Position numbers and translations under genes: made by a program. Below, piece after piece: positions 16,571-43,742 of a stretch of DNA of 49,437 nt. The stretch is taken from positions 1 to 49,437 of the forward strand of contig VXPH01000185.1 of the NCBI GenBank assembly GCA_009839615.1, written 5' to 3'. Under the pieces are notes generated by a model that was given only the letters and a program-made list of their open reading frames with translations, did not search any database and was not told where the DNA came from. The stretch comes from Nitrospinota bacterium. Lineage in GTDB: Bacteria; UBA8248. Every line of letters begins with the position of its first letter. The first letter of the stretch is position 1.

Positions 16571-16638
16571 CTTGAAAAAACGCTCCCCCACCGGCGTTCT
16601 GAGCGGAAAATCCGGGTTTCTTGGCTAAAATCCGGCTG

Positions 16639-16667: not shown

Positions 16668-16792
16668 CTGCGGGGCGGATAGTTTCGGCTTCGGGCGATT
16701 CCGCCTGTATGCGGGGAGAATATGCTGAAAATAGGAGGTGGTTCACGAAGAGAATAGCGGGCGTTCACGCCCCGCGTTCGTCTTTCCTCCAG

Positions 16793-19700
16793 CTATTCGT
16801 TTTGGCTTCTGATAATGCCGGCGAGTTGGCCGATGATGGCGATGGAGATGGTCGGGTGCTCGTATATCAATTCGAGCAGGGGTTCTTTCTCGATACCCAG
16901 CAGTGAGGTGTCCTTGCTCGCGCGCGCGCCTGCGCTTCTGCCCTCATCGCCGAAGAGCGCGATTTCACCGAACGAGGTCGGGGGGCCGAGCGAGGCCAGA
17001 GTCTTCGCCTCTCCGTTCTCCTGGTCGAGGATGATCTCTATTTCCCCGTCGACGATGACGTAGAGATAATCGCAGGGGTCTCCCTGCTCGAAAAGAACCT
17101 TTCCTTCTTCTATCTGGATTTCCCTGGAAATGTTGCTCAGTATCTTCAGTTGATCCGCGCTCATCGCCTCGAACATGCCGACGCCTTTCAGGAACAGGGC
17201 TTTTTCGATGGTCGAGAGCATGATTTTCTCCTGTCTGGATAGATTCTCGCCGCTTCCCTCATAGCGCAGGAATTCACGGCGCACTTGAAGGCGAACCTGT
17301 TGACTCTCGTCATTTTCCATGGTTCTCAAAAACGCCTCAACATCTTCTTCATCTTTCCCGATAATTTTCAATGCGGCAACTGCGGCCTCGCGGAGGTAAG
17401 CGTCGCCCTCAGCGGCCCGCGCCTTGAATTGCGCGCGCCACTCGGCGGCGGCTCCTTCCGCTTCGCTTTGGAGGTGTTTGCCCGCCGCGTCGACGGCGAT
17501 GGCCTGGAGCCAGGCGTTCCCGGAATTCATATAGGTCGTCAGCACCTCGTCAATCGATTGTTCGGGCATCTCCCAGAGTTTCCTGCCTTCGGATACTTTA
17601 TCGGCGGTCGATCTGCCCAGGAGCAGGGGCTCGAGCGCCAGAATCAGGAGTCTCGTGTTGCCGGTCGAGGAGAAGTTCGAGAGCGTCTCGATGGCGATCG
17701 CCCTGGACGAGGAGCCGCCTCGCGCGAGGGATTCCGACACGGTGTCCACCGTTTTCTCATCCCCTATCACCCCCAGCAGCTCCAGCAGGACGAGTTTTCT
17801 TTCCTCGACGACGTCTTCGAGCGCCTTTTTCAACATCGTGAAGGCGGATGCGTTCTCCCGGCACTCGATGACGTGGAGGTGCTTGATGACGTCGTAGACT
17901 TCCTTCAGGTGCTCCACGGCGAACCCGGAGAGGGCGTCCACGATTTCCTGCGCGCTCATCTCGCGGGAGCCGTTTTTTGCGCTTCTGAACAAAAGCGGGG
18001 CGAGGAACGAAAGCATCCCGGAGCCTTCGAGAGAGAGGGTTCCTTTTCGCTTCATGTTCTTGAGGGACTCGACGACCTCCCGTCTCACCAGAAAGTCGAC
18101 GTCCGCGAGAGCGGTCAGGGCGCGCTCGAAATTCTCCCGCGAGCCGTTGTTGCCCAGTTGCCGGACGCCTCTGCGCCTGATGGCCGCGCTCTCATCCGAG
18201 GTGGTCATCCGGATGACCTCTTCCATATTCTCCTCATCGACTCCCTGGTTCATGGCCAGAACTTCTATCGCTTCCAGTGCGGCTTCGCGGACTTTCTCCT
18301 CGTTCTGGTGGAGATAGGGAATCAAGCGTTTGATGAATCGCGGGTTCTGAAGCTCCCCCATGCACCGCAGGGCGCAAACCCTGGCCGCCGCGTCTTCTTC
18401 GTTCAGCATCCGGTGGAGCGTTTGCAGGCCGTTGGCGAGCCAGAACAGATCATCGGAGCGCACGAGCAGCTCGACGGCGCGGGCCCGGACTTCGGGGGAG
18501 CCGCTCTCCAGATTCTCATGGACCAGCTCCGCCGTCTCCTCCGTCAGTCCGATGGTTTCCGCCGCATCCATGGCGGCGCACTGAAGGACGGGCTCCCCGC
18601 AAGTGAGGTATTCCTCCAGCAGGGGCCGCATTTTCTCGCCCTCTTCGGCTCCCGGAACCCTGGCGAGAATTTTCAGCAACTCGGCCGCTGCTTCTCCTTT
18701 TCGCCGGGGGATTTCTTCGAGAATGATTTGATAAGTTTCGCTTCTGCCGCTTTCCGCCATCATCTGCGCGGTGAAGACGCAAAGATCGTCGTCCCCCTCG
18801 CGGATGTTTTTTCTGAGTATCTCCATGCTCTCGTCGTCAACCGGGCCGAACCCCTCCTTGGCGTAACGGAACAGCCCCAGGTTCCTCTCCTCGAGCATCC
18901 GGCGCAGGGCGGCGCCGTATTCGCGGCGCACGAAGAAGCCGGTAGCCAGGTAGGCGAATGCGATGAACAAGGAGATGAGCGCCAACTGGCCGGGGCTGAG
19001 CGGGAATAGGGCGAGGCCGGTGGGCTTGATGATGAGCAGGGCGACGCCGCTCACGATGCTGGCCACGGCGACCACCTGGCCCGCGACGAACGCGCCGACT
19101 CTCGCGCGGATCGAGGGGGAAACGGCGTTGTAGAGCAGGGCGTTGATGGCGTTTCGAATCGATTCCTGGAGGTTCTTGTTGTTGAAGCGCAGGAAGACGG
19201 CGGAATAGAAGCCGGGCGAAATCGCCATGCCGGCGAGGCCGATGATGGTCGTCAGCGGGTAGAGGAGGTTCGCCGTCCCCAGGCCGAGCCGCTTGATGAT
19301 GCGCGGGGTGATGAACGTCTGGACGAGCAGGGAGAAGGCGCTCCCGATGGCGGTGAAGTATCCGAGGAACGAGGCGAGTTGCGCCCGATCGGGAAAGACT
19401 TCGCGAAAGACGAGGCTGTATTGAAAGTCCTGAAAACTCCGGAGAATCACGACGATGAAGCTGAAAAGCGCGAACGCACAGACGTATCTGTTTGTCTTCA
19501 TGAGCGCGAGATTGCCGCCCTTTGAGGCCGCCTTGGTTGTTTTGCGCTTTTTGGGGCCGGCATCGTCGATCATGTGGTCTTTCAGCCGCCATTCGGCGTA
19601 TTGCACCACGCCGACGCTGACGACGATGGCGCCGATCCATACGTAGAGCAGATTCGAGACGCTCCCCAGGATGGGGATGAGCAGTGGAATGGCCAGGCCG

Positions 19701-20191
19701 CCCAGGATGCCGCCGTAGCGCCCTCCCGTGAGGATGATCGGAACCAGCCGCTTGGATTGCAGGACGTCGAGATACTGCCCGTAGAGGGCGCGGAAATTGT
19801 TCGGCAGCATGTTCGTGAACATGACGAACAGCGTATGGAGGAGCGGAAATGCGATTGGCATCGCGTAGGCGCGAAAATCGGCGAAGATGAGCAGCTTGAT
19901 GCCGAAGATGAGCACGATAAAAAATACCAGGACGGTCTTGAACATCGCCGGAATCGAGAGTTTTTCGGTCAGGGAGGAGTAGAAGGTGCTGATGAAGATG
20001 ATCATCAGGGCGTTGAATATGTACATGTACGGCAGAAAGCCCGGACCGACTTCCGAGAGGAACAGGGCTTCGGATACGGTGAGCCCGATGGAGAACTGAA
20101 CCCCGATCAGGAAATAGAAGAAAAAGAACACCGAGAAGACGAGCAACTCCTCTTGCTGGATGTTGAAGGCTCTTTTGAGGAGTTTCGTCAT
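16793..20191 (-). CDS. NTT/TLC-like MFS transporter fused to HEAT repeats and a C-terminal cyclic-nucleotide-binding domain
   Basis: N-terminal ~430 aa multi-TM (ALFLSEVG...LPYMY, QSKRLVP, LASFLGYF, QTFITPRIIKRLG); central HEAT-like repeats (EVRARAVELL, KVREAALEAI); C-terminal LSTIEKALFLK...LFEQGD..YVIVDGEI..FGEIALF..RSA. Confidence 0.88.
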   Translation of the reverse strand: MTKLLKRAFNIQQEELLVFSVFFFFYFLIGVQFSIGLTVSEALFLSEVGPGFLPYMYIFNALMIIFISTFYSSLTEKLSIPAMFKTVLVFFIVLIFGIKLLIFADFRAYAMPIAFPLLHTLFVMFTNMLPNNFRALYGQYLDVLQSKRLVPIILTGGRYGGILGGLAIPLLIPILGSVSNLLYVWIGAIVVSVGVVQYAEWRLKDHMIDDAGPKKRKTTKAASKGGNLALMKTNRYVCAFALFSFIVVILRSFQDFQYSLVFREVFPDRAQLASFLGYFTAIGSAFSLLVQTFITPRIIKRLGLGTANLLYPLTTIIGLAGMAISPGFYSAVFLRFNNKNLQESIRNAINALLYNAVSPSIRARVGAFVAGQVVAVASIVSGVALLIIKPTGLALFPLSPGQLALISLFIAFAYLATGFFVRREYGAALRRMLEERNLGLFRYAKEGFGPVDDESMEILRKNIREGDDDLCVFTAQMMAESGRSETYQIILEEIPRRKGEAAAELLKILARVPGAEEGEKMRPLLEEYLTCGEPVLQCAAMDAAETIGLTEETAELVHENLESGSPEVRARAVELLVRSDDLFWLANGLQTLHRMLNEEDAAARVCALRCMGELQNPRFIKRLIPYLHQNEEKVREAALEAIEVLAMNQGVDEENMEEVIRMTTSDESAAIRRRGVRQLGNNGSRENFERALTALADVDFLVRREVVESLKNMKRKGTLSLEGSGMLSFLAPLLFRSAKNGSREMSAQEIVDALSGFAVEHLKEVYDVIKHLHVIECRENASAFTMLKKALEDVVEERKLVLLELLGVIGDEKTVDTVSESLARGGSSSRAIAIETLSNFSSTGNTRLLILALEPLLLGRSTADKVSEGRKLWEMPEQSIDEVLTTYMNSGNAWLQAIAVDAAGKHLQSEAEGAAAEWRAQFKARAAEGDAYLREAAVAALKIIGKDEEDVEAFLRTMENDESQQVRLQVRREFLRYEGSGENLSRQEKIMLSTIEKALFLKGVGMFEAMSADQLKILSNISREIQIEEGKVLFEQGDPCDYLYVIVDGEIEIILDQENGEAKTLASLGPPTSFGEIALFGDEGRSAGARASKDTSLLGIEKEPLLELIYEHPTISIAIIGQLAGIIRSQNE

Positions 20192-20288
20192 GCCGATCAC
20201 TTGTAGAGCAGTGGAGAGGATCCTTCGTGAGATTATCGCCTCCCGAAAGCCCCGGCGTGGAAGCGAACCTGATCCGGTTGATTCTAGC

Positions 20289-21905
20289 TTAGACTTTTTG
20301 AGATTTCCATGAGTAGAACGACAGGGCGTCCTCCGTCCACTGCGCGCAGTTTCGGCTGAATCTATCCCAGCGGCTGTTGGCGCATTGAGCGCGGACGGGG
20401 TCGGCGTTGCCCTCGACGATCAGGCCGTTGAGCGGCGAGAGGTCGAATTCGGCCCGAACCGGAACCCTGCCGAGCTCCTCGGGGCCGAGGAGAGACAAAA
20501 AGCGCGCAAACGCGTCGAAGGCGCCGCGAAGCTTCCCGCACAGGCGTTCCGCGCCTCCCGCAAATGCGACCAGGGGCGGAACCAAAGGCACGTAGCGGTT
20601 CAGTTCCATTCCTCCTTCGGTGCGGTTCGTGATGCTGTCCACGCCGACGCCCCCGATGGAATCGTCCGTAAATTCCACCGGAAAGAGTCTGGCGTAGAGC
20701 GTTTCCACGACCGGCCCCTCGCGGCTGAGCCTCAGATGAACGCGAACGCTGAACAGGCCGAAATCGATCCAGTCGCATATGAGCGGCCGGTAGCGCGCGT
20801 CGAACACCTGCTCGTAGTTCTCGATGGCGCTCGCCAGGAGGCGGATCGAATCCTCACGTGTGCGGGACGCTTCGCGCAGTTCGGATTCGAGTCTGGGCGC
20901 GCAGTTCTTGAGTATCTGCCCCAAAACGTCCGGGGAGGCGCCGCCTCCCGCCCTTCGGGTCTTGACGTAGGCTTTCGCGGTCGCCGGGCTGGCCTGGAAC
21001 CGGTGAACGAGCCAGTCCATCGCCTGGAGGTGCTCGTGGTTTTCGGCGTCGAGAGACAGGGGGAGGGGAATCGCATGGTCCGTCGCGACGCCGAGCCTGC
21101 TCAAGTCCGGAAGCCCGAACCCGTTGGGGTAGACGTCCAGCCGGAAGCATCCGCGTCCCCCGCCGCCTTCCAGCGGTTTGACGAAGAAAGTCCCCGTCCC
21201 CCGTTTCCGTGACAGGGCGGAGGCCCCCTCCAGAATGGCGGCGGCGGTGTCCGCAGGCCTTCCCCCGTTTAACTCCACCACTTCATAGCCGGCCGTGAGG
21301 CGACGATCAGGAGCGTCCGCTTCGGGGTTGTTCGCGTCCGTCCCGTTTCCGTTCAGGAGTTCGTACGTGGTTTTCTTGTTGGAGAGCGGGCCGCCGGGGG
21401 CGGTGATAGACCCCGGGGCCACGACGATTCCGCGCTCTTCCAGGACCCTGGCGAGGGTGGCGTCGTAGAGGCTTCTCTGGGCGGTCTGGCTGATGACGAG
21501 CAACTCTTTCGGCGCTCTGGCGGTGCGGGCCAGAAGCTCCTCCCGCCGGTTCAGGACCCTGACGGGGATGGACAACCCGAGTTGTCTCAGGTGCGCTCTC
21601 ATCACCCGCGCCGTTTCCATGGTGAGGGGCAGCCGGCTCGGGGAGCCATCCAGCAAGAGGATTTCCCCCGGACGCCGAACGGGTGGCGTGTCTTCCAGAA
21701 TGCGCAAGCCCCCGAAACGGGGCTCGCGCGACGCCCAGTGGTTGAGGCTTTCGATGAGCGTTTCGTTCAGATCACCGTCAGGCGAATCGAACTCCTGGCT
21801 CACGCGGTACAAATCCCAGACGCCGCCGCTCGCATCGGGCGTGAGATGATAGAGAGAGGGTTCCCGCGCGATGCGGGGATGGCTTGGTGTTTTCCGTGAG
21901 GCCAA
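20289..21905 (-). CDS. Divergent ATP-grasp-fold ligase; probable TTG start at 21905
   Basis: LSNKKTTYELL, FFVKPLEGGGGRGCF, terminal EFDL...IVEGNAD (ExN); the ORF-track extension to 22148 overlaps the DUF1611 gene; GAGAG precedes TTG 21905. Confidence 0.7.
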   Translation of the reverse strand: MASRKTPSHPRIAREPSLYHLTPDASGGVWDLYRVSQEFDSPDGDLNETLIESLNHWASREPRFGGLRILEDTPPVRRPGEILLLDGSPSRLPLTMETARVMRAHLRQLGLSIPVRVLNRREELLARTARAPKELLVISQTAQRSLYDATLARVLEERGIVVAPGSITAPGGPLSNKKTTYELLNGNGTDANNPEADAPDRRLTAGYEVVELNGGRPADTAAAILEGASALSRKRGTGTFFVKPLEGGGGRGCFRLDVYPNGFGLPDLSRLGVATDHAIPLPLSLDAENHEHLQAMDWLVHRFQASPATAKAYVKTRRAGGGASPDVLGQILKNCAPRLESELREASRTREDSIRLLASAIENYEQVFDARYRPLICDWIDFGLFSVRVHLRLSREGPVVETLYARLFPVEFTDDSIGGVGVDSITNRTEGGMELNRYVPLVPPLVAFAGGAERLCGKLRGAFDAFARFLSLLGPEELGRVPVRAEFDLSPLNGLIVEGNADPVRAQCANSRWDRFSRNCAQWTEDALSFYSWKSQKV

Positions 21906-21922
21906 GGTTTCGCTCTCGATGC

Positions 21923-23092
21923 CTAAAACACCGACTTGCGCTGGCGCATGAAGTGTTTGACCACCCAGTCCGCAATGGCGCCGCCCACGGCGTTGTCGGT
22001 GGCCAGGGAGGAGGGGTTCGGGGCGATGCAGCTCAAGGCGCGTATCCCCGTCATGCGGTACGCCTCCTCGCGCGCGTGCGCTTCGTTCGCGAGTATTCCG
22101 GAAATGAGCATGTTTTCCTCCTCCACCCCCAGGTGGCTTCTGAGCCAATGGACGATGAGCGTGGATTCCAGCGTATCACATGCGCAGACGATCAACCCTC
22201 TGCGCGAGAGCCAGTCTTTGACCCAGGGGTCGCTCGCCACGTCGAGGCTGGCGTCCGCGGAGGGGGAATCCGCCAGTTCCGCGATGACGATTTCCGCCTT
22301 CGCGCATGCGTGGCGAAGCAGGTTCTGGGCGCATCGCCTGATCTTGTGCCTGGAGACGCCGCACGTGGAGGCAAGGCCCGCATCGACGAAATCCCAGCCG
22401 AGTCTCGCGGAGTCGAAAAACCCGAGCGGTCTTCCGTAGTTCACCTGCATGAGATCCCGCATCCGGCCTGTTCCGGTGAGTTTCACGTATGAGACGTGGA
22501 TGCCCGAGGAGTGCAGGGCGGAGGCGAGCGAAGAGGCACACGTCGTTTTGCCCACGTCCATATCGGAGCCGGTGACCAGGATGATGGGAGCGCAGGGAAC
22601 CCCCTCTTCATCCACGGGGCAGCGGGTATCGGGGATGACAGGGAGGTCGGAAAGCAGGGCGGGTTCGCCCCGGAGCGCGACGCCCCCTTTCACCTCTATT
22701 TTCACGCACGGCGTTTCGGCGTTCGCACGGATCCCGCATACGCCGCCGACGTTCAGCAGGTCGAGCACGGCGCCCGGCGCTGCGGGGGAGTCCGGCGCAC
22801 GGCCCGAAACGCTGCGATTCGCATACCGCCCGCCGATCGCGACGACCACGTTCATCTTTTCGCGCAATTTTATTTCGCTCGTCTTCCAGGCGTCTTCCGT
22901 TCCCTGGAGGACTTCGAGCGTTTCCAGGCGATTGATGGGAGCGTTCTCGGGCGCGGCGACAACTTCACCCAGCGCGATCCCGTTCGAGGGAACGGGCCCG
23001 GGGTCGGGCGTGAAATCCGTCTGAAACGCATACGGGCTTTCAGGAGACAGGAGCAATCCTCGAGCGGTAGTTGCGAAATAATCGGTTTGCAA
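21923..23092 (-). CDS. DUF1611-family P-loop protein
   Basis: VVVAIGGRYA, LDLLNVGGVCG, Walker-like VTGSDMDVGKTT, VKLTGTGRMRD, DFVDAGLAST, IAELAD, ISGILAN. Confidence 0.8.
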   Translation of the reverse strand: MQTDYFATTARGLLLSPESPYAFQTDFTPDPGPVPSNGIALGEVVAAPENAPINRLETLEVLQGTEDAWKTSEIKLREKMNVVVAIGGRYANRSVSGRAPDSPAAPGAVLDLLNVGGVCGIRANAETPCVKIEVKGGVALRGEPALLSDLPVIPDTRCPVDEEGVPCAPIILVTGSDMDVGKTTCASSLASALHSSGIHVSYVKLTGTGRMRDLMQVNYGRPLGFFDSARLGWDFVDAGLASTCGVSRHKIRRCAQNLLRHACAKAEIVIAELADSPSADASLDVASDPWVKDWLSRRGLIVCACDTLESTLIVHWLRSHLGVEEENMLISGILANEAHAREEAYRMTGIRALSCIAPNPSSLATDNAVGGAIADWVVKHFMRQRKSVF

Positions 23093-23105
23093 TTGTCACC
23101 TTGTC

Positions 23106-24572
23106 CTAAGCGGGAGAAAGAGCAAGACGGTGCGTGAAAACATCTATCATTTCCCGGGCGGCGGGGGATATCTGCTCCTCGCCCCCTTCATAGATGGATG
23201 AGACGCCCTCGAGCTTACAGAATGCTCCCCTCGGCTCTACTATGGTGCCTTTCGCCGGGGGAGAGCAAGTGACAAGCGCCTCGTTCTCGTCTTGAACGTC
23301 GCTCAGGCGATAACCCCGCCGGATGAATTCGGGCCTCCCGTTTTGGATGGCGTAGATGCCGGGTTCCAGCGAATGGCCGATTCGCACTCTCGAAGGACTC
23401 GTGTTTCGAATCAAAAGCTGGAAACCGGACAAATCCGGGCGGCTGAGTTCGGCGGGCAAATCCCGGTGCGCGTCGAGCGCGGCGCCCGGCTTCAGGAATT
23501 CGGCCAAATGCCAAAATGTGGTGGTGGGTGCGCTGCCGTGTATTTCCTCGAGTTCGGTCATCAGTTGCGTCGTTCCCAGGACGCGCGGGTTGAGTTCGAG
23601 AGCGTAGGGTTCGTCCTCATGGACGATGAAATCGACGCCGTATATTCCCCGGTAGCCCGCCTCGGCGATCCACTCGCCGATTTTCAGGGTGAATTCCTCG
23701 ATTTTACGCCGGCTCTCCTCGGAAACCAGCCGATACGCCGCATAGTCGCTGCCCGCGTAATCGAATCGGTGCATGGAGCAGCCGGGAATTCCCGTGAACA
23801 TCACCGAGGGGTGAGACATCCAGGGCTTGCCGTCATAAATCAGCCCCGCCGTGCCGACGGCGGGGCCGCTCAGAAACGTGCTCACGATCACCGGCGCATC
23901 AACGCCCAGCTTTTCGATGAGTTGATCGCGTTTACTCGCGAGCGCCTCGGCCGAGTCGATGAAGTGCGTCTGGTTGCCCGAGGAGCCGATTCGCTCCGAA
24001 ACGATCATGACCGGCCCGAATTCTTCCAGATGCTTGAGTCCAAGATCGCCCAACGCCGCCACGTCGCCCGGGGGAACGTCGAACCCCGCTTCGACCGCCT
24101 GGCGCCGGAACGCTATCTTGTCGTCGAACCTCGTCTTGATTTCCACCGGGTTCGCCAGGATGCGGAGCCGGCCCTCGGCTTCTTCTGCGAGTTTGCCGAG
24201 GAATTCCGTGGAACGGTAGGGGATGACGTACCGTGGGGCATCCCCTTGCGAGAGATATTGGCGAATCTGCTCACCCAGGGCTCCTTCGTAGGCCTCTACG
24301 AGCGATGAATGCGTCCATACGATTCGCCTGTTCCGCCCGCGCTCCACGGCGAAATAGCGCAGGCGCCTGTCCCATTCGGGCCCGTCGAGCCCGTAGTCGC
24401 ATGCGATGAGGAAATCGAGGGGGACGATGTTTTCCACCGTAATCGAATCGACTGCGCGCAGGCCCTGGAAACCGAACGTCGCGCCGTCCGGAACGGCGGA
24501 TGTCAAGATGTCGTTGAAATCACTTTTCGTGTGAGCAGGCAAGGAGGGTGTTCCTTCACCGAGAATCATCAC
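23106..24572 (-). CDS. ATP-grasp ligase (PGM1/biotin-carboxylase-like peptide ligase type)
   Basis: FDDKIAFR, GSSGNQTHFI, YAGSDY, IGEWIAEAGYRGIYGVDFIV, LELNPRVLGTT, C-terminal PGIY. Confidence 0.82.
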   Translation of the reverse strand: MMILGEGTPSLPAHTKSDFNDILTSAVPDGATFGFQGLRAVDSITVENIVPLDFLIACDYGLDGPEWDRRLRYFAVERGRNRRIVWTHSSLVEAYEGALGEQIRQYLSQGDAPRYVIPYRSTEFLGKLAEEAEGRLRILANPVEIKTRFDDKIAFRRQAVEAGFDVPPGDVAALGDLGLKHLEEFGPVMIVSERIGSSGNQTHFIDSAEALASKRDQLIEKLGVDAPVIVSTFLSGPAVGTAGLIYDGKPWMSHPSVMFTGIPGCSMHRFDYAGSDYAAYRLVSEESRRKIEEFTLKIGEWIAEAGYRGIYGVDFIVHEDEPYALELNPRVLGTTQLMTELEEIHGSAPTTTFWHLAEFLKPGAALDAHRDLPAELSRPDLSGFQLLIRNTSPSRVRIGHSLEPGIYAIQNGRPEFIRRGYRLSDVQDENEALVTCSPPAKGTIVEPRGAFCKLEGVSSIYEGGEEQISPAAREMIDVFTHRLALSPA

Positions 24573-24765
24573 AAGTGTCCATGTGGCCCCGAAATCGAAA
24601 AACAGGCGATTCTAATTCGTTCGCCTCACGGATATCAAGACGATTCGACGATTCGGGAAACGGCGATTTCACTTTTGGGGGCTTCTGCAACGCGCAGCGC
24701 GCTATGCTAGGATGCGGGGCGTCCCAACTCCCCAAATATTGGCACCCAGGCGCGGGAACAGGTGA

Positions 24766-25698
24766 ATGTCCGAAGATAGAAAAATGTCCGACTCTGCTTT
24801 TGGTGCGGATGAGTACCCGATGATGTCGGAATCGGAACTCAGGTGGGAGATATTCCGCCGGAGCCTGATGCGCGCCAAACCGGCGATGCTCGGCGGCGTT
24901 TTTCTCATTCTGCTGGTGGTCGTTTCTCTTTCCGCCCCCCTCATCGCGCCGCAAGACCCGGGCATGGTGGACGTCAACCTGCGCCTGAAGCCTCCCGTCT
25001 GGATGGAGGGAGGAAGCGCGAGCTATATGCTGGGAACCGACGCGCTGGGCCGGGACATTCTGAGCCGGCTCATATACGGAGGGCGCGTCTCTATCCTGGT
25101 GGGCTTGAGTTCGGTGGTGATTTCCGGGGTCATCGGCATCGTCCTGGGTCTGGTCTCGGGCTTTTTCGGCGGGAAAATCGACGATCTCATCAGCGGGTTC
25201 TCCGAAATTCAACTGGCGTTTCCTTTCATTCTGCTTGCCATCACGATCATGGCGGTCGTCGGGCCGGGGCTTCTGAACATCATCGTGGTGCTGGGGATCA
25301 GCCGGTGGGTGGCGTACGGCCGCGTGGTGAGAGGGCAGGTCATCTCGATCAGGGAGCGCGAATTCGTGGAGGCCACCCGCGCCCTGGGCTATCCTTTGTA
25401 CCGCATATTGTTCATGCAGATTCTGCCCAACACCCTCTCGCCTCTCATCGTCATCGCCACCTTCGCCGTGGCGGGAAACATCATTTCCGAATCATCCTTA
25501 AGTTTCCTGGGGCTCGGTGTACCGCCTTCTGTCGTCACCTGGGGGGGCATGTTGTCCGAGGGACGCGAATATCTGCGCGGCGCCTGGTGGATGGCGACGT
25601 TTCCGGGTCTCGCCATCATGGCGACGGTATTGAGCATCAACCTTATCGGCGACTGGCTGCGGGACTACATGGACCCCCGCCTCGGCGATGATATGTAG
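24766..25698 (+). CDS. dppC: Peptide/nickel ABC transporter permease (DppC/OppC)
   Basis: LGTDALGRDILSRLIYGGRVS, AFPFILLAI, EAA loop REFVEATRALG, ILPN, ESSLSFLGLGV, INLIGDWLRD.MDPR. Confidence 0.92.
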   Translation: MSEDRKMSDSAFGADEYPMMSESELRWEIFRRSLMRAKPAMLGGVFLILLVVVSLSAPLIAPQDPGMVDVNLRLKPPVWMEGGSASYMLGTDALGRDILSRLIYGGRVSILVGLSSVVISGVIGIVLGLVSGFFGGKIDDLISGFSEIQLAFPFILLAITIMAVVGPGLLNIIVVLGISRWVAYGRVVRGQVISIREREFVEATRALGYPLYRILFMQILPNTLSPLIVIATFAVAGNIISESSLSFLGLGVPPSVVTWGGMLSEGREYLRGAWWMATFPGLAIMATVLSINLIGDWLRDYMDPRLGDDM

Positions 25699-25729
25699 GC
25701 GTTTCGTTAATTTTGAAGGGAATTTGCGC

Positions 25730-27277
25730 ATGAAAAGGGCCTTGTTGTGCGGATTTTGCCTGCTGCTCGTGGCGCTCGCCGCCTGCGGCCGTGAAGCGAA
25801 AGACGGGCCCTTTACGGTTCTCCTCTCGGTGGAAGCCAACACGCTCGACCCCCATTTCGCCACGGCCACCATCGAGTGGAGCATATTGATGAACATGTTC
25901 GACCCGCTCATCGAGCGGCGCGCCGATATGACGCTGGGCCCCGCTCTGGCCGAACGCTGGGAGGTGGACGAGACGAAAAAAATCTGGACGTTTCATCTCC
26001 GCAAAGGCGTGAAGTTTCATAACGGCGAGCCGTTCGACGCCGAATCCGTGCGCTACACGTTCGAGCGGATGCGCGATAAGAAACTCAAGCCCCGCATCAC
26101 GGTTTACCGGAGGATTTTCCTGGACAGGATAGAAAAGGTGGACTCCCACACCGTGAAGATTCACACCAAGCGCCCGGTCGCCACCCTGCCGGTGTGGATG
26201 GTGAACGCCTTCATGTTGCCGCCAAAGTATTATTCGTCGACCCCGCCCAAGGAGTTGCTTAAAAAACCCGTGGGCACGGGGCCATACAGGCTGGTGCGAT
26301 GGATCAAGGACGACCGCATCGAGATGAAGGCCAACGAGGGCTGGTGGCGGGGAAGGCCCGCGATAGAGAAGGTGATCTGGCGGCCGGTGGCGGAGGCTTC
26401 GGCCCGCATAGCGGAGCTTGAAACCGGTGGGGCCGACGTCATCATGAATATCTCGCCCGATCAGTCGAAAGCCATCATCAACAACGAAGAGGGCCTCCAG
26501 TTCAAGGGGGCGCGGGGCGGACGCAGGATCTATCTGGGGATTCGCACGGACCATGCGGTGCTCGGCGACTCCCGCGTCCGACGGGCGCTGAACCACGCGA
26601 TTGATTTCGAGGCCATCATCAAGAACGTTTTTCTGGGCCATGGCTCGCGAATGCGGAGCATCGTCAACGCCCCTAACGCCGCTCCGGACATCAAGGCGTA
26701 TGCCTACGATCCCCAAAAGGCGAAAGCGCTCCTCGCCGAGGCCGGCCTCGAGGACACGAATGGGGACGGTGTGCTGGAAGCGAATGGAAAGCCGTTTAAG
26801 ATAGAACTTGAAGTACCTTCTTCCAGGTATTTGAAAGGAAAGGAGATGGCGGAATTTTTGGCGGCTTATTTCCGCGACGTGGGCGTCCACGTGGAGGTCA
26901 TCCCCCTGGAGTGGTCCGTTTTCCTCGCCAGAAGAAGGAAAAAGACGCTGGCGCCCTTGTATTTTCACGGGTTCAGCTCCGCCTTCAACGAAGAACTCGA
27001 TTTGGGCGTACTGAGGCCCAACCTTTTTGCGAACCTCACCGCCTGGAGAAACCGCGAGTTCATTCAAAATTACAAGTCGCTCGGCCAGACGTTCGACCCC
27101 GCCGGACGCAAGCGGATCAGCTACCGGATGCAGCGCATCGTTCATGAGGAAAGCCCGTGGGTGTTCCTCTGGAACCAGTATGATTTTTTCGGCTTGAGCG
27201 CGAGGACGCAGTGGACGCCGAGGCCGGATGAGAGAATCTACCTGCCCACGATTCGCTTGAAAGAGACGAAAGGCTAG
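25730..27277 (+). CDS. dppA: Family-5 ABC substrate-binding lipoprotein (DppA/OppA-like)
   Basis: Lipobox LAAC; TLDP, PALAERW, WTFHLRKGVKFHNGEPFDA, PVGTGPY, RVRRALNHAID, YDPQKAKALLAEAG, DTNGDG loop. Confidence 0.92.
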   Translation: MKRALLCGFCLLLVALAACGREAKDGPFTVLLSVEANTLDPHFATATIEWSILMNMFDPLIERRADMTLGPALAERWEVDETKKIWTFHLRKGVKFHNGEPFDAESVRYTFERMRDKKLKPRITVYRRIFLDRIEKVDSHTVKIHTKRPVATLPVWMVNAFMLPPKYYSSTPPKELLKKPVGTGPYRLVRWIKDDRIEMKANEGWWRGRPAIEKVIWRPVAEASARIAELETGGADVIMNISPDQSKAIINNEEGLQFKGARGGRRIYLGIRTDHAVLGDSRVRRALNHAIDFEAIIKNVFLGHGSRMRSIVNAPNAAPDIKAYAYDPQKAKALLAEAGLEDTNGDGVLEANGKPFKIELEVPSSRYLKGKEMAEFLAAYFRDVGVHVEVIPLEWSVFLARRRKKTLAPLYFHGFSSAFNEELDLGVLRPNLFANLTAWRNREFIQNYKSLGQTFDPAGRKRISYRMQRIVHEESPWVFLWNQYDFFGLSARTQWTPRPDERIYLPTIRLKETKG

Positions 27278-27280
27278 ACG

Positions 27281-28198
27281 ATGGGCGCCTATCTTTTCAG
27301 ACGATTTCTCAGGGCCGTCGTGGTCGTGGTCGGCGTGAGCTTCATCTCGTTCGCCGTCTTGTTTCTATCGGGCGCCCCGACCGACACCATGGTGGGCGAG
27401 GACTGGACTGTCGAGGAGGTCCAGAAGCTCAAAGAAGACTTAGGCCTCGACAAGCCCTGGTTTGTCCAGTACGCGCTCTACGTGGGCCGTGCGGTGCAGG
27501 GGGACTTCGGAGAAAGCCTGCGCTACCGCCAGCCTGCATTCGAACTCATCATGGAGCGTCTGCCGGCGACTCTGGAGCTCGCCCTCGTGGCGCTGGTTCT
27601 CTCGATTATCCTGGCGTTTCCGGTAGGGGTCATCAGCGCGACGCAGCGCGGTTCCCCGTATGATCACGGGGGGATGCTGTTCGCGCTCCTGGGACAATCC
27701 ATGCCTGTTTTCTGGCTCGGTTTGATGCTGATCCTCATCTTCGGGGTGAGTCTGCGGTGGCTGCCCGTCAGCGGAAGGAGCGGCTGGGAGCATCTGGTCC
27801 TGCCCGCCATTGCGCTTTCCACATACTCGATTGCGAGAAATGCGCGGGTGGTCCGAAGCTCCATGCTGGAGGTTCTGCGCCATGAATACGTGAAGACCGC
27901 CCGCGCAAAGGGACTCTCCGAGTGGATCGTCATCAACCTGCACGTGCTCAGAAATTCCATGATCCCGGTGATCACCATCATCGGCCTGGAGTTCGGGCAC
28001 TTGCTGGGAGGGGCTGTGATCGTCGAGACGATTTTCTCCTGGCCGGGGGTGGGCAGGCTCCTGATTCAGGCCGTCTACGCCAAGGATTTCCCCCTGGTTC
28101 AGGCCTCGGTGACCATCACCGCCCTGATTTTCGTGTCCTTGAACCTCATCGTTGACATGATGTATTCCGTCCTCGACCCAAGGGTGAGACTCCATTGA
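27281..28198 (+). CDS. dppB: Peptide/nickel ABC transporter permease (DppB/OppB)
   Basis: LGLDKP..VQY, GDFGES, RLPATLEL, SMPVFWLG, HLVLPA, RSSMLEVL..EYVKTARAKGL, ETIFSWPGVG, DPRVR. Confidence 0.93.
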   Translation: MGAYLFRRFLRAVVVVVGVSFISFAVLFLSGAPTDTMVGEDWTVEEVQKLKEDLGLDKPWFVQYALYVGRAVQGDFGESLRYRQPAFELIMERLPATLELALVALVLSIILAFPVGVISATQRGSPYDHGGMLFALLGQSMPVFWLGLMLILIFGVSLRWLPVSGRSGWEHLVLPAIALSTYSIARNARVVRSSMLEVLRHEYVKTARAKGLSEWIVINLHVLRNSMIPVITIIGLEFGHLLGGAVIVETIFSWPGVGRLLIQAVYAKDFPLVQASVTITALIFVSLNLIVDMMYSVLDPRVRLH

Positions 28199-29133
28199 GC
28201 AGAACCGCCTATTTCTGGACGCCCGAATCACTCATGCACGACAACGGCCGGCATGTGGAGAACATGGAGCGCGCCAGGCGCCTGACGCCCGAGAGAATTC
28301 TCCCCCAAGTCCCGTCGCTCGGGCGCATGGAGATCACGCCCCACGACGCGAGTGAATGGGTGTTGCGAGTGCATGAGGAATCGCACCACAGTTTCGTGCG
28401 GGAGGCATGCGCCGGCGGCAGGTGCATTCTCGATGCCGGGGACACGCAGGCCGGCCCCGGAAGCTATGAGGCCGCCCTGGCCTCCGTCGATGCGGCTTTG
28501 AGTGCGGCGGATGCCGTCATGGCCGGTGAAGTGGATAACGCCTTTTGCGCCGCCAGACCTCCGGGCCACCACGCCTTGCCCTTTCAGTCGATGGGTTTCT
28601 GCCTGTTCGCCACCGCCTCCATCCTGGTCCGGTATCTACAGGAAAAACACCGCCTTCAGAGAATCGCTGTCGTGGATTGGGACGTGCACCACGGGAACGG
28701 TACGCAGCATATCTTCTGGCGAGATCCGGATGTGCTTTTTGTCTCTTTGCATCAGCATCCCCACTATCCCGGTACGGGGCTTGCGGGCGAGACGGGAGAA
28801 GGAGCCGGGGAGGGTGCGACGCTGAACATTCCCGTCGCAGCGGGAACGCCTGAAGAGGAATATCTGGCGAAGTTTCAAGAGAGCGTCATACCCGCCATCG
28901 AGGCGCAAGGGCCGGAGGCGATCGTCGTATCGGCGGGATTCGACGCGCACCGAGACGATCCGCTCGGGGGGCTGATGATCACCGAAGACGGGTTCGCCCG
29001 CCTGACCGGGTGGGTGAAGGCGCTTGCCGAGAGCCTTTGCGGGGGGCGGCTCGTCTGTCTGCTCGAGGGCGGGTACAACCTCGACGCATTGGAGCGCTCC
29101 GTCGTCGCGCACTTGCGGGAACTCTCCGCATAA
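28195..29133 (+). CDS. Histone-deacetylase-family (class II-like) amidohydrolase
   Basis: RPPGHHA, GFCLF, DWDVHHGNGTQ, SLHQ..YPGTG, SAGFDAH..DPL, LEGGY; TTG start overlaps the dppB stop (TTGA). Confidence 0.93.
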   Translation: MSRTAYFWTPESLMHDNGRHVENMERARRLTPERILPQVPSLGRMEITPHDASEWVLRVHEESHHSFVREACAGGRCILDAGDTQAGPGSYEAALASVDAALSAADAVMAGEVDNAFCAARPPGHHALPFQSMGFCLFATASILVRYLQEKHRLQRIAVVDWDVHHGNGTQHIFWRDPDVLFVSLHQHPHYPGTGLAGETGEGAGEGATLNIPVAAGTPEEEYLAKFQESVIPAIEAQGPEAIVVSAGFDAHRDDPLGGLMITEDGFARLTGWVKALAESLCGGRLVCLLEGGYNLDALERSVVAHLRELSA

Positions 29134-42066: not shown

Positions 42067-42081
42067 CCGGTGATGAACCTC

Positions 42082-43290: not shown

Positions 43291-43305
43291 GGTGGACCTC
43301 CTTCT

Positions 43306-43599
43306 CTACGCGAGGTCGCCGCGGCCGCGGGCGCTCTCTATGTTGTGTACGTGAATGTAGTCGCCCACCTTGATGTCCTTACTCGCCACACCGATGGACA
43401 GGCCGTATTTCATGCAGTGCTCGCCCTTTTTGAGGGGCTTGATGCAGATTTTGTGGATGTAGGGAATCGCTTGATTGGCCTTGAGCGTCTTGCCCATCTT
43501 TCCGTTGAGCATGAGGCGAACCGAGCCTCCCTTCGCCACCTTTTGGAGACAGGTGGCGACGTTGTCTCCTTCTTCGATGATCATCGCAGTTACCGGCAT
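43306..43599 (-). CDS. SAF-domain small subunit of a split UxaA-family enzyme (SuyA-like)
   Basis: DNVAT, IPYIHKICIKPLKKGE..MKYG.SIGVA..DI.VGDYIHVHN.ES.RGRGDL; GAAGGAG RBS. Confidence 0.88.
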   Translation of the reverse strand: MPVTAMIIEEGDNVATCLQKVAKGGSVRLMLNGKMGKTLKANQAIPYIHKICIKPLKKGEHCMKYGLSIGVASKDIKVGDYIHVHNIESARGRGDLA

Positions 43600-43742
43600 G
43601 TCTTCTCCTTCAAAAATTCAGGGCGCGAATACGCCTCGCACCCAGCCATATGATGGATATGTGAGGAACGTCCAATCAACGAGCCATAAAACTAGCGCAT
43701 GGGGGCCGACACTTCAACAAAGGCGGGGGGTTTTCATTACAC

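What the first reader, a model, noticed from the sequence alone, without database searches (positions are those of the whole stretch)
16793..29133. Candidate undescribed system: twin ATP-grasp ligases + DUF1611 + NTT-HEAT-cNMP transporter, back-to-back with a peptide importer and deacylase
Seen: four leftward genes with short gaps (about 13, 17 and ~100 nt): ATP-grasp A (23106-24572), a DUF1611 P-loop protein, an unrelated ATP-grasp B (20289-21905) and an ~1130-aa NTT-HEAT-cNMP transporter. They share a ~190-nt divergent region with dppC-dppA-dppB-HDAC. Established: ATP-grasp enzymes form amide bonds; PGM1-type members are peptide ligases; DUF1611 includes the D-glutamate N-acetyltransferase DgcN; NTT-HEAT-cNMP proteins have no firmly assigned substrate; bacterial HDAC homologues deacylate small molecules. 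Inference: a non-ribosomal peptide or amino-acid-conjugate pathway with synthesis and regulated transport on one arm and uptake and deacylation on the other. I know of no described pathway with this gene set.
Basis: partly seen in the sequence, partly recalled or inferred. Interest (0 to 1): 0.85.

Follow-up and report, generated by a model that had tools for sequence, protein, structure and literature searches.

The report
Seven-gene ligase, exporter and importer module
A group of nitrite-oxidiser relatives (Nitrospinota) carries a block of seven genes, gained or lost together, that most likely makes a small peptide-like compound, pumps it out and takes it back up, and that nobody has described.

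Summary
Four leftward genes and the divergent dppC-dppA-dppB-HDAC genes lie at the stated coordinates with the stated gaps.

Three labels need correcting:
- "ATP-grasp B" has no sequence family, but its predicted fold is ATP-grasp of the RimK/LysX/DcsG/Ddl type.
- The "DUF1611" protein matches that family only below threshold. By fold it ties with the CTP-synthase synthetase domain, DUF1611/DgcN and BioD.
- The transporter has no direct Pfam TLC match. It is a divergent relative of proteins that carry TLC, HEAT and cNMP domains.

Across 51 genomes of the phylum, grA, the P-loop gene, grB, the transporter and the adjacent dppA share one presence/absence pattern (8 of 15 genera). Four genomes show the block lost between intact HDAC and cytochrome genes, two cleanly and two leaving gene remnants.

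HDAC has a different distribution and survives every loss, so it is a flank and not a member.

In Elusimicrobia-type genomes the grA-grB pair sits beside a MATCAP-type carboxypeptidase instead.

Best reading (confidence 0.45): two ligases plus a P-loop enzyme build an amide-linked small molecule. A cNMP-sensing transporter exports it and DppCAB re-imports it. The product is unknown. My literature searches found no description of this gene set.

The parts
16759..16772 (-). Terminator-like hairpin 21 nt after the transporter's stop codon. Probable end of the leftward transcription unit.
   Evidence: Consensus scan only. The scan found 23 such sites in the region against 15.0 expected, so this is weak evidence.
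16793..20200 (-). Transporter of 1135 aa. It has an N-terminal membrane domain (about residues 20-424), HEAT repeats and a C-terminal cyclic-nucleotide-binding domain. It is a divergent member of the NTT-HEAT-cNBD group.
   Evidence: HEAT_2 77.4 bits and cNMP_binding 74.1 bits. Thirteen partly overlapping hydrophobic windows, about 10-12 separate segments, all lie within residues 20-424 and none later. There is no direct Pfam TLC match. Residues 1-460 searched alone hit proteins that carry PF03219 plus HEAT and cNMP domains, at E from 3.9e-112 down to about 1e-10.
20289..21905 (-). grB: an orphan ATP-grasp ligase of 538 aa. The fold is of the RimK/LysX/DcsG/Ddl type, with an N-terminal extension and a helical insert.
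   Evidence: No Pfam or NCBIfam match. AF2 model pLDDT 85.5. Foldseek gave 171 matches at E<=0.001, and every listed row is an ATP-grasp enzyme. VIA scores: DcsG Z 19.6, ArgX 19.3, LysX/ArgX 18.2, RimK 17.0, Ddl 16.6, GshB 15.3. Residues K243, the G247-G252 loop, D488, E498 and N500 are invariant in 19 sequences.
21923..23092 (-). P-loop protein of 389 aa. The N-terminal domain (about 1-165) is rich in beta strands. The C-terminal domain is a SIMIBI-class P-loop domain of the BioD / CTP-synthase synthetase / DUF1611 kind.
   Evidence: AAA_26 22.4 bits and DUF1611_C 20.4 bits, both below cut-off. AF2 pLDDT 83.0. VIA scores: CTPS synthetase domain Z 14.3, DUF1611 2obn 14.2, 2g0t 13.8, DgcN 7xrj 13.2, FTHFS 12.8, BioD 12.8. 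The Walker A motif G175...G181-K182-T183-T184 is invariant in 14 sequences.
23106..24572 (-). grA: an ATP-grasp ligase of 488 aa, of the class with an E-x-N-P-R motif (carboxylase / L-amino-acid-ligase-like).
   Evidence: ATP-grasp_3 31.5 bits, above the cut-off of 23.2. PRK06524 scores 71.4 bits, far below its cut-off of 684. S197-S198-G199, D314 and E326-x-N328-P329-R330 are invariant in 13 sequences, Elusimicrobia included.
24573..24765 (.). Divergent 193-nt control region. It holds a promoter-like site for the leftward genes (24638-24609, TTGATA-18-TAGAAT) and two sequence blocks that are conserved in relatives.
   Evidence: Promoter scan. An alignment of nine loci shows conserved ATCCTAGCATAG and ATCGAATTAGAATCG blocks. 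No conserved small ORF was found.
24766..25698 (+). dppC-type ABC permease.
   Evidence: BPD_transp_1 102.6 bits and OppC_N 41.9 bits. The best NCBIfam rows are Opp4C, DppC and NikC, all below their cut-offs.
25688..27277 (+). dppA-type family-5 solute-binding lipoprotein.
   Evidence: SBP_bac_5 294.4 bits. Signal peptide with a lipobox-like LAAC. It is about equally distant from NikA, DppA, GsiB/YliB and HbpA. Its orthologue tracks the four ligase/transporter genes across the phylum.
27281..28198 (+). dppB-type ABC permease, the last gene of the module. Its stop overlaps the start of the HDAC-type gene, which is a flank and not a member.
   Evidence: BPD_transp_1 159.2 bits. Remnants of dppB mark the deletion end-points in G020 and G050.

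Best explanation
The functional unit is a seven-gene module, grA / P-loop / grB / NTT-HEAT-cNBD transcribed leftward and dppC-dppA-dppB transcribed rightward from one 193-nt control region. It works as a make, export and re-import cassette for a small amide-linked (peptide-like) metabolite.

Inferred steps:
1. grA, an ATP-grasp ligase of the E-x-N-P-R class, joins two building blocks through an acyl-phosphate.
2. grB, of the RimK/LysX/GshB/Ddl-type fold, adds a further residue to a free carboxylate.
3. The BioD/CTPS/DUF1611-like P-loop enzyme makes a third nucleotide-dependent modification: amidation, ring closure or N-acylation.
4. The NTT-like 12-helix transporter exports the product. Its cytoplasmic HEAT and cNMP domains tie this to a cyclic-nucleotide signal.
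5. The lipoprotein DppA with DppB and DppC brings the compound back, free or loaded (for example with a metal), using ATPase subunits encoded elsewhere.

Shown: gene identities and folds, the boundaries of the unit, its co-inheritance and its repeated loss as a block.

Inferred: the direction of transport, the order of the reactions and the nature of the product.

The HDAC-type gene is an older resident of the locus. It is co-transcribed with dppB by position only.
For: Unit and boundaries:
- Across 51 genomes of the phylum, grB is present in 35, the P-loop gene in 36 and grA in 36.
- The transporter orthologue (E<=1e-77) is present in 34.
- The adjacent-type dppA (>=48% identity) is found in 35 of the 36 genomes with grA.
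- All five occupy the same 8 of 15 genera.

Loss as a block:
- G040 and G041 have HDAC directly next to the cytochrome gene, with all seven genes absent.
- G050 keeps only transporter residues 832-1134 and dppB residues 270-300 between intact cytC and HDAC. That is one deletion from inside one end gene to inside the other.
- G020, of the same genus as the window, keeps remnants of dppB, dppC and grA. It has lost grB and the transporter, while HDAC, TetR and cytC are intact at about 90% identity.

Enzymes:
- The ATP-grasp catalytic motifs are invariant in grA and grB.
- The grB fold scores Z 15-20 against peptide- and amino-acid-ligating ATP-grasp enzymes.
- The P-loop domain scores Z 12.8-14.3 against the CTPS synthetase domain, DUF1611/DgcN, FTHFS and BioD. 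All are nucleotide-dependent enzymes and most form C-N bonds.
- No hydrophobic segment was found in any of the three enzymes, so they are cytoplasmic.

Other points:
- DppA has a lipoprotein signal.
- The grA-grB pair is kept as a pair in a second phylum, beside a MATCAP-type carboxypeptidase. This fits a product with a removable C-terminal residue.
- There is a promoter-like site before grA and a terminator-like hairpin after the transporter.
Against: - No substrate is known for any component.
- Characterised NTT proteins are nucleotide importers or exchangers, not peptide exporters (Major et al. 2017, PMC5381601, passages read). Export is an assumption.
- The whole neighbourhood, RelA-EndoV-cytC on one side and HDAC-TetR-HtrA on the other, is also syntenic in this clade. 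Adjacency alone is therefore weak evidence, and the case rests on the loss patterns.
- Kin genomes are not independent. The number of separate losses (at least three by genus labels) assumes that the genera are monophyletic.
- The dpp arm is not adjacent in L040, where an aldo/keto reductase, a pentapeptide-repeat protein and MgsA lie upstream instead.
- It is also not adjacent in L021, where a methyltransferase lies upstream.
- The module has no ABC ATPase genes.
- In G020 the P-loop gene is still intact.
- MAG assemblies can contain errors.
- No RNA data were available.
Confidence: 0.45

Rival explanations
1. A system that modifies the C-terminus of a protein or peptide. grA and grB add amino acids to the C-terminal carboxylate of a protein or ribosomal peptide encoded elsewhere, as RimK, LysX/ArgX and tubulin ligases do. 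The MATCAP-type carboxypeptidase in Elusimicrobia is the eraser. The transporters in Nitrospinota then serve another, linked purpose.
For: The nearest folds to grB include ArgX and LysX, which ligate onto the C-terminus of the LysW carrier (Z 19.3 and 18.2), and RimK (Z 17.0). TTLL11 is further down at Z 13.4. MATCAP-grA-grB is conserved in 6 of 6 Elusimicrobia-type loci with enough flank.
Against: There is no small carrier or precursor gene in the module. The gaps are 13, 17 and 88 nt, and the 193-nt intergenic region has no conserved ORF. This reading gives no role to a dedicated transporter and peptide importer that are lost together with the ligases. The own genome has a separate true RimK-family ligase.
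Confidence: 0.15
2. An import-only module. The NTT-like protein imports a nucleotide or nucleotide-like substrate, as characterised NTTs do. DppCAB imports a peptide. The three cytoplasmic enzymes join or process the imported compounds, as salvage or as use of a compound from a host or the community.
For: Every characterised NTT imports or exchanges nucleotides or related cofactors (Major et al. 2017, passages read). The P-loop fold relatives bind nucleotides or CoA. Runs that hold this DNA include ones labelled sponge metagenome, so a host-associated life is possible.
Against: The membrane domain is so divergent that Pfam TLC does not detect it, so substrate transfer from characterised NTTs is unsafe. 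Relatives with the module also come from records of open-ocean and groundwater MAGs (record titles). Ligases are biosynthetic enzymes.
Confidence: 0.15
3. One arm synthesises and exports an N-acylated peptide. The other arm takes it up and deacylates it with the HDAC-type enzyme, giving an eight-gene system.
For: The dppB stop overlaps the HDAC start (28195-28198), so they are probably co-transcribed here. DgcN, an N-acetyltransferase, is among the tied fold matches of the P-loop protein (Z 13.2). HDAC is adjacent in 29 of 32 loci with enough flank.
Against: The HDAC orthologue is present in 9 of the 15 genomes without the module. It was not found in G008 and G009, which have the module. It is intact in all four loss loci. 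In L030 dppB is followed by a convergent znuABC-like set, not by HDAC.
Confidence: 0.07
4. No common function. These are neighbours kept together by vertical inheritance in a clade with a stable gene order.
For: RelA, EndoV, cytC, HDAC, TetR and HtrA are conserved around the module just as well.
Against: Only the seven genes disappear together, while both flanks stay intact, in four genomes of four genera. The five profiles tested coincide, whereas that of HDAC does not. The grA-grB pair persists in another phylum.
Confidence: 0.1

Closest known systems
NTT-HEAT-cNBD fusion proteins (Major et al. 2017, Genome Biol Evol, PMC5381601; passages read)
   Same: The architecture is the same: a membrane domain, HEAT repeats and a C-terminal cyclic-nucleotide-binding domain. 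Relatives found with the membrane domain alone carry PF03219 together with HEAT and cNMP domains.
   Different: The membrane domain here is below Pfam TLC detection. That paper gives no function and mentions no ATP-grasp genes (0 occurrences of the term). The fixed link to two ligases, a P-loop enzyme and DppCAB is new.
RimK / LysX-ArgX / DcsG / D-Ala-D-Ala ligase / glutathione synthetase branch of the ATP-grasp superfamily
   Same: The grB model superposes on these at Z 15.3-19.6 over 270-290 residues. It keeps the Lys, the Gly-rich loop and the D...E-x-N metal ligands (the roles of these residues are recalled).
   Different: There is no detectable sequence relation to any of them. No Pfam, NCBIfam or PDB profile match was found. 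A profile search of 1.84 billion representatives returned only 44 proteins at E<=0.001, apart from two very long multi-stretch proteins apparently all of the grB family or fragments of it (family membership checked by BLASTP for 39 of the 41 new hits; P0180 and P0183 gave no match at E<=1e-3). grB is about 240 residues longer, with an N-terminal extension and a helical insert.
L-amino-acid ligases and peptide ligases of the E-x-N-P-R ATP-grasp class (BacD, RizA/RizB, TabS, PGM1, BesA; names recalled)
   Same: grA has the ATP-grasp_3 domain and an invariant ELNPR motif. It has weak matches to BesA and LdmS. Two such ligases in one cluster build tripeptides in rhizocticin synthesis (recalled).
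   Different: Every NCBIfam match is far below its cut-off (best 71.4 bits against 684). No PGM1-specific domain was detected. The grA family is small: 60 clusters, named only 'ATP-grasp domain-containing' or 'hypothetical'.
Metallophore cassettes of the staphylopine (cnt) type and the glutathione export/import cycle (CydDC / GsiABCD); both recalled, neither tested as homology
   Same: The layout is the same: cytoplasmic synthesis genes, a dedicated exporter and a family-5 SBP ABC importer side by side. DppA here is about as close to NikA, CntA and GsiB as to DppA itself.
   Different: There is no opine or nicotianamine synthase. The enzymes are ATP-grasp and P-loop types. The exporter is NTT-like with HEAT and cNMP domains. 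The importer lacks its own ATPases. No metal or thiol link was shown.
DUF1611 / DgcN (PDB 2obn, 2g0t, 7xrj) and BioD / CTP-synthase synthetase domain
   Same: The C-terminal P-loop domain superposes on all of them at Z 12.8-14.3. The Walker A motif GSDMDVGKTT resembles the BioD-type loop (the motif resemblance is recalled).
   Different: The Pfam DUF1611_C match is below cut-off and limited to the P-loop. The N-terminal domain is predicted to be beta-rich and has no family match.
MATCAP (PF08014, formerly DUF1704) carboxypeptidase with a tubulin-ligase-like add/remove cycle
   Same: In Elusimicrobia-type genomes a MATCAP-family gene (150-166 bits) directly precedes grA-grB.
   Different: No MATCAP match was found in the window's own genome, though the control genomes did not ring either. 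The target is unknown.

Membership tests
ATP-grasp superfamily (grA) | Pfam ATP-grasp domain above the gathering score, with conserved ATP- and Mg-binding motifs | tested here: met
   ATP-grasp_3 31.5 bits against a cut-off of 23.2. SSG loop, D314 and E326-x-N328-P-R330 are invariant in 13 sequences.
ATP-grasp superfamily (grB) | A sequence match to any ATP-grasp family model | tested here: not met
   No Pfam or NCBIfam match, even at E<=10. The PDB profile search gave only chance-level hits, best E 0.012.
ATP-grasp superfamily (grB) | ATP-grasp three-domain fold with Lys, a Gly-rich loop and D/E-x-N metal ligands | tested here: met
   pLDDT 85.5. 171 Foldseek matches at E<=0.001, with only ATP-grasp enzymes among the listed rows. 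Z 19.6 to DcsG and 17.0 to RimK. K243, G247-G252, D488, E498 and N500 are invariant.
PGM1-type / PRK06524 peptide ligase (grA) | A score above the family's curated cut-off | tested here: not met
   PRK06524 scores 71.4 bits against a cut-off of 684. No other equivalog comes near its cut-off. No PGM1-specific Pfam domain was listed.
DUF1611 (PF07755 plus its N-terminal domain) | DUF1611_C above the gathering score over most of the profile | tested here: not met
   20.4 bits against a cut-off of 25, covering profile positions 12-55 of 201 only. The L030 orthologue scores 21.3 bits.
DUF1611 (PF07755 plus its N-terminal domain) | A fold closer to DUF1611 structures than to other SIMIBI P-loop enzymes | tested here: inconclusive
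   2obn Z 14.2, 2g0t 13.8 and 7xrj 13.2 are tied with the CTPS synthetase domain at 14.3, and close to BioD and FTHFS at 12.8. The N-terminal domain was not tested separately.
NTT / TLC nucleotide transporters (PF03219) | A direct match to the Pfam TLC model | tested here: not met
   No TLC match for residues 1-460 at E<=10. The whole-genome search gave none either, but the control genomes also gave none, so that search says little.
NTT / TLC nucleotide transporters (PF03219) | Significant homology of the membrane domain to proteins that carry PF03219 | tested here: met
   Residues 1-460 alone match P0102 (E 3.9e-112, 44% identity, PF03219 on record) and many PF03219+HEAT(+cNMP) proteins at E from 6.8e-41 to about 1e-10.
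NTT-HEAT-cNBD fusion architecture | A membrane domain followed by HEAT repeats and a C-terminal cNMP-binding domain in one protein | tested here: met
   HEAT_2 77.4 bits and cNMP_binding 74.1 bits at residues 1029-1112. Hydrophobic segments occur only in residues 20-424.
Complete Dpp/Opp/Nik-type ABC importer | An SBP, two permeases and two ATPases encoded together | tested here: not met
   The SBP and two permeases are present. There is no ATPase gene in the module in the window, nor next to dppCAB in L030. Three oligo_HPY-type ATPase genes lie on other contigs.
Graspetide / RiPP cluster | A precursor-peptide gene next to the ATP-grasp ligases | tested here: not met
   The gaps are 13, 17 and 88 nt. 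ORFs in the 193-nt region are not conserved in the nine-locus alignment.
   HDAC is found in 9 of the 15 genomes without the module and is missing from G008 and G009, which have it. It is intact in all four loss loci.

The most novel reading that the evidence does not exclude
This subclade of the enigmatic NTT-HEAT-cNBD proteins is not a nucleotide importer. It is a cyclic-nucleotide-gated exporter for a new non-ribosomal peptide-like metabolite. That metabolite is made by two orphan ATP-grasp ligases and a BioD/CTPS-like enzyme, and a dedicated ATPase-less DppCAB takes it back up. The whole would be a previously unknown extracellular or periplasmic shuttle (metallophore or redox carrier) in Nitrospinota.
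Probability: 0.3. Interest if true: 0.8.

Novelty: new variant of a known kind. Interest (0 to 1): 0.62.

Why it matters
NTT-HEAT(-cNBD) proteins are widespread in bacteria, cyanobacteria, chlamydiae and oomycetes. In the one survey that describes them they have no known function (PMC5381601). My search for the term found no later functional work.

This module gives one subclade a fixed set of partners and so a testable hypothesis. It also defines two very small ATP-grasp families:
- grB: 44 representatives among 1.84 billion proteins
- grA: 60 clusters

These two always occur as a pair in two phyla.

Record titles place the carriers in Nitrospinota, a phylum that includes the main marine nitrite oxidisers (Lücker et al. 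2013, PMC3578206, abstract and passages seen). A secreted and re-imported metabolite could therefore bear on their trace-metal or redox ecology.

The natural loss variants (G020, G040, G041, G050) are ready-made comparison strains.

Tried and rejected
- The direct TLC test failed. I kept the NTT label only through homologues.
- Relocation idea: I first read L030 as the module sitting in a new neighbourhood. I rejected that when EndoV and a RelA fragment turned up downstream of the transporter and L030 proved to lie in G008, which is of the same order. Only the dpp-side flank differs.
- RiPP or carrier-protein idea: no conserved small ORF was found.
- Glutathione-like thiol idea, which gained no support in either direction:
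  - The own genome's only GSH-S_ATP match is a RimK-family ligase.
  - There is no PF04262 match.
  - There are two GCS2 matches.
  - There is no GST_N_3 match.
- Metallophore idea: the SBP is equidistant from NikA, DppA, GsiB and HbpA, so it does not discriminate.
- grA-grB complex prediction gave no answer: score 0.01 against a mark of 0.32. I draw nothing from it.
- Expression: no RNA holder was listed among the 22 runs. Read laying was not used, because contigs cannot show transcription.
- The two Atlas searches gave only leads. For the P-loop protein: unnamed clusters of 335-376 aa with minority CbiA, DUF1611 or MobB labels. For grB: RimK, GSH-S and YheCD-type clusters.
- Literature: the pairs ATP-grasp+DUF1704, DUF1611+ATP-grasp and MATCAP+ATP-grasp returned no papers. 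The DgcN search returned only unrelated papers.
- Supplements were closed. Table S1 of Lücker et al. 2013, which lists the 'genes for siderophores' of N. gracilis, could bear on this and was not seen.
- L017/G028 shows a broken dppA and HDAC. I took this as a possible assembly error and did not use it.

Full report
**What is in the sequence**

Leftward genes:
- a 1135-aa transporter (16793-20200)
- grB (20289-21905, 538 aa)
- a P-loop protein (21923-23092, 389 aa)
- grA (23106-24572, 488 aa)

The gaps between them are 88 (or 97), 17 and 13 nt.

Rightward genes, after a 193-nt divergent region:
- dppC (24766-25698)
- dppA (25688-27277)
- dppB (27281-28198)
- an HDAC-family gene (28195-29133)

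Next come TetR, HtrA and a P1B-type ATPase. To the left lie a 982-aa multihaem cytochrome c, endonuclease V and RelA/SpoT.

A sigma-70-like site (TTGATA-18-TAGAAT, 24638-24609, minus strand) precedes grA. A terminator-like hairpin (16772-16759) follows the transporter. These are consensus matches only.

**The proteins**

*grA.* It passes Pfam ATP-grasp_3 at 31.5 bits against a cut-off of 23.2. It keeps an invariant SSG loop, D314 and E326-L-N-P-R330 in 13 sequences from two phyla. Its best NCBIfam row, PRK06524, reaches 71 bits against a cut-off of 684. The 'PGM1-type' label is therefore not established.

*grB.* It has no Pfam, NCBIfam or PDB sequence relative. An AlphaFold model built on 19 relatives is confident, with pLDDT 85.5 and pTM 0.88. 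Foldseek gives 171 PDB matches at E<=0.001, and every listed row is an ATP-grasp enzyme.

An independent all-against-all structural search ranks these first, each over 270-290 aligned residues:

| Structure | Z |
|---|---|
| D-cycloserine synthetase DcsG | 19.6 |
| ArgX | 19.3 |
| LysX/ArgX | 18.2 |
| RimK | 17.0 |
| D-Ala-D-Ala ligase | 16.6 |
| Glutathione synthetase | 15.3 |

The residues expected to bind ATP and Mg are invariant: K243, the G247-G252 loop, D488, E498 and N500 (their roles are recalled).

*P-loop protein.* It matches AAA_26 (22.4 bits) and DUF1611_C (20.4 bits) below cut-off, and only around the Walker A loop. Its model (pLDDT 83.0) has a beta-rich N-terminal domain and a SIMIBI-class C-terminal domain. 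That domain superposes about equally well on several enzymes:

| Structure | Z |
|---|---|
| CTP-synthase synthetase domain | 14.3 |
| DUF1611 2obn | 14.2 |
| DUF1611 2g0t | 13.8 |
| N-acetyltransferase DgcN 7xrj | 13.2 |
| Formate-tetrahydrofolate ligase | 12.8 |
| BioD | 12.8 |

'DUF1611' is one possibility among several tied ones.

*Transporter.*
- Hydrophobic segments occur only in residues 20-424.
- These are followed by HEAT repeats (77.4 bits) and a cNMP-binding domain (74.1 bits).
- Pfam TLC does not detect the membrane domain.
- That domain searched alone finds 97 proteins. Beyond the orthologues, many carry PF03219 with HEAT and cNMP domains, at E from 6.8e-41 to about 1e-10. One Nitrospinota relative at 44% identity is named an Npt1/Npt2-family transporter.
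- The protein therefore belongs, as a divergent member, to the NTT-HEAT-cNBD fusions of Major et al. 2017. That paper reports no function for them (PMC5381601, passages read).

*DppA.* It has a lipoprotein signal. It is equally distant from NikA, DppA, GsiB/YliB and HbpA.

*ATPases.* No ABC ATPase gene lies in the module. Three oligo_HPY-type ATPase genes lie on other contigs.

**How rare the ligases are**

grB has 54 clusters among 5.8 billion proteins by the word-indexed search. A profile read against 1.84 billion representatives found only 44 at E<=0.001. grA has 60 clusters.

Source names are only 'ATP-grasp domain-containing protein', 'HEAT repeat domain-containing', 'cyclic nucleotide-binding domain-containing' or 'hypothetical'.

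**Synteny**

Forty-six related loci were fetched. By their record titles they come from Nitrospinota, Nitrospinaceae, 'Tectomicrobia' and unnamed MAGs, with two from Elusimicrobia.

Counting only loci with enough flank:

| Gene next to grB | Loci with it | Misses |
|---|---|---|
| grA | 41 of 41 | none |
| P-loop gene | 39 of 41 | the two Elusimicrobia loci |
| Transporter | 33 of 35 | the same two |
| dppC, divergent | 35 of 38 | L021, L033, L040 |
| HDAC | 29 of 32 | L030, L033, L040 |
| cytC | 27 of 30 | L030, L032, L033 |

RelA, EndoV, cytC, TetR and HtrA are conserved just as well. Adjacency by itself therefore says little in this clade.

**The decisive evidence: presence, absence and loss**

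In the 51 genomes held for the phylum:
- grB is found in 35, the P-loop gene in 36 and grA in 36.
- The transporter orthologue (E<=1e-77) is found in 34.
- All occupy the same 8 of 15 genera.
- A dppA at 48% identity or more occurs in 35 of the 36 genomes with grA.
- Among the 15 genomes without grA, it occurs only as a lone two-piece 57-60% match in G050.

The HDAC orthologue behaves differently. It is present in 9 of the 15 genomes without the module. It was not found, at E<=1e-40, in G008 and G009, which have the module.

I then read the locus in genomes that lack the module:
- In G040 (genus g6) and G041 (g7), HDAC and the cytochrome gene are direct divergent neighbours about 200-280 nt apart. 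All seven genes are absent.
- In G050 (g9, whose sister species keep the module), the space between intact cytC and HDAC holds only the last 300 residues of the transporter and residues 270-300 of dppB. That is one deletion running from inside one end gene to inside the other.
- In G020, of the window's own genus, HDAC, TetR, HtrA, cytC, EndoV and RelA are intact at 87-93% identity.
- G020 retains only dppB residues 254-305, dppC residues 1-57 and grA residues 11-71 and 416-488.
- G020 has lost grB and the transporter, while its P-loop gene is still whole.

The unit that comes and goes is therefore dppB...transporter, seven genes, and HDAC is outside it. By genus labels this is at least three separate losses: G020 within g1, part of g9, and g6-g8. 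That count assumes the genera are natural groups.

In G008 (locus L030, same order, 35-47% identity for the enzymes, the transporter and dppA; 65-71% for the two permeases), the seven genes are together. dppB is followed there by a convergent znuABC-like set. EndoV and a RelA fragment remain beyond the transporter.

**Exceptions, told in full**

- L040, a metagenome contig, has the four leftward genes with an aldo/keto reductase, a pentapeptide-repeat protein and MgsA upstream, and no dpp genes within 5.3 kb.
- L021 has a methyltransferase upstream of grA. In that genome (G036) a dppA fragment and HDAC lie on another contig.
- The synthesis/export half and the uptake half can therefore be separated.

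**A second context for the ligase pair**

In the phylum of the two Elusimicrobia records, grB is found in 8 of 26 genomes. One of the eight is only a fragment.

In all 6 loci with enough flank the order is MATCAP-family metallocarboxypeptidase (PF08014, 150-166 bits), then grA, then grB. The seventh locus ends inside grA.

Two of these genomes were searched and show no P-loop orthologue and no transporter orthologue. The second search had no positive control.

The invariant core is thus the pair of ligases. A carboxypeptidase partner suggests a product with a removable C-terminal residue.

**Mechanism proposed**

Shown:
- two catalytically intact ATP-grasp ligases of different classes
- one nucleotide-binding enzyme of the BioD/CTPS/DUF1611 kind
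- a cytoplasmic location for all three enzymes
- one cNMP-domain transporter
- one periplasmic binding lipoprotein with two permeases
- one shared divergent control region with conserved blocks
- inheritance and loss of the seven genes as a unit

Inferred:
- The three enzymes build a small amide-linked compound.
- The NTT-like protein exports it under cyclic-nucleotide control.
- DppCAB retrieves it, perhaps loaded with a metal or changed in redox state.

The layout parallels metallophore cassettes and the glutathione export/import cycle. Those parallels are recalled and were not tested as homology.

I put this reading at 0.45. The rivals are:
- a protein or peptide C-terminal tagging system (0.15)
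- an import-only salvage module (0.15)
- mere synteny (0.10)

**Novelty**

No paper in the searchable library joins these families:
- ATP-grasp with DUF1704, DUF1611 or MATCAP: 0 papers each.
- Nitrospina with ATP-grasp: 2 papers. One was read in passages and mentions the fold only for ATP-citrate lyase. The other was seen only as a listing and is on PafA/Dop.
- 'NTT-HEAT': 3 papers, of which only Major et al. was read. The other two were seen as listings.
- The wider amidoligase search listed 78 papers, of which I saw 10 titles and abstract openings.

The parts are of known kinds. The combination, the two tiny ligase families and the context they give to an NTT-HEAT-cNBD protein are new. I rate it a new variant of a known kind, with interest 0.62.

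**Limits**

- All genomes are MAGs.
- There is no expression data.
- No substrate is known.
- The complex prediction gave no answer.
- Supplements were closed.

Noticed in passing
window 24766-28198; own genome contigs C99 and C189: The dppC-dppA-dppB set has no ATPase genes, either here or in the distant L030. Pfam PF08352 (oligo_HPY, the C-terminal domain of Opp/Dpp-type ATPases) gives three matches in the own genome, all on other contigs, two of them adjacent on C189. The importer must borrow its ATPases.
   Followed up: partly
L047 (G020:C1:2741000-2757000) and L064 (G050:C168): Both are natural decay states of the module. G020 shows three separate deletions that leave remnants of dppB, dppC and grA, with an intact P-loop gene. 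G050 shows a single deletion that leaves the transporter's C-terminal 300 residues and 30 residues of dppB.
   Followed up: yes
L032, L033, L059-L063 (Elusimicrobia-type genomes): A MATCAP-family (PF08014) carboxypeptidase gene directly precedes grA-grB. There is no P-loop gene, transporter or dpp genes nearby. Downstream neighbours (a DUF2092-AhpC fusion, CobA, MTHFR) are also syntenic.
   Followed up: partly
window 24573-24765 and the same region of eight relatives: Two conserved blocks lie in the divergent intergenic region: ATCCTAGCATAG, and ATCGAATTAGAATCG followed by a T-run. They may be the two -10 regions or an operator.
   Followed up: no
window 13643-16591 (-): A 982-aa multihaem cytochrome c with Cytochrom_C, CBB3-type and FixO-like segments. 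It has its own strong promoter-like site (TTGACG-17-TATAAT, 16667-16639). It stays in place whether or not the module is present.
   Followed up: no
window 1446-2540 (-): A canonical D-Ala-D-Ala ligase (Dala_Dala_lig_C, 213 bits) lies in the same window. grB is therefore not the housekeeping Ddl.
   Followed up: no
window 38079-39395 (+), 42070-43653 (+), 47888-49258 (-): Three long ORFs (438, 527 and 456 aa) have no Pfam match at E<=1e-4. Overlapping ORFs exist on the opposite strand, so some of them may not be genes.
   Followed up: no
L017 / G028:C10: In this relative, dppA and HDAC appear in pieces, with one in-frame TGA in dppA, inside an otherwise intact module. This could be an assembly error or early decay. 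The bin is 8.0 Mb.
   Followed up: no
window 16700-25700: Near-identical DNA stands in contigs of 20 listed runs from 8 coded studies, several of them labelled sponge metagenome. None is on record as RNA.
   Followed up: no
G036, G046, G047, G048 (other contigs): These genomes hold a second, short (433-445 aa) distant relative of the transporter's membrane domain, at 21-24% identity and without a HEAT or cNMP part.
   Followed up: no
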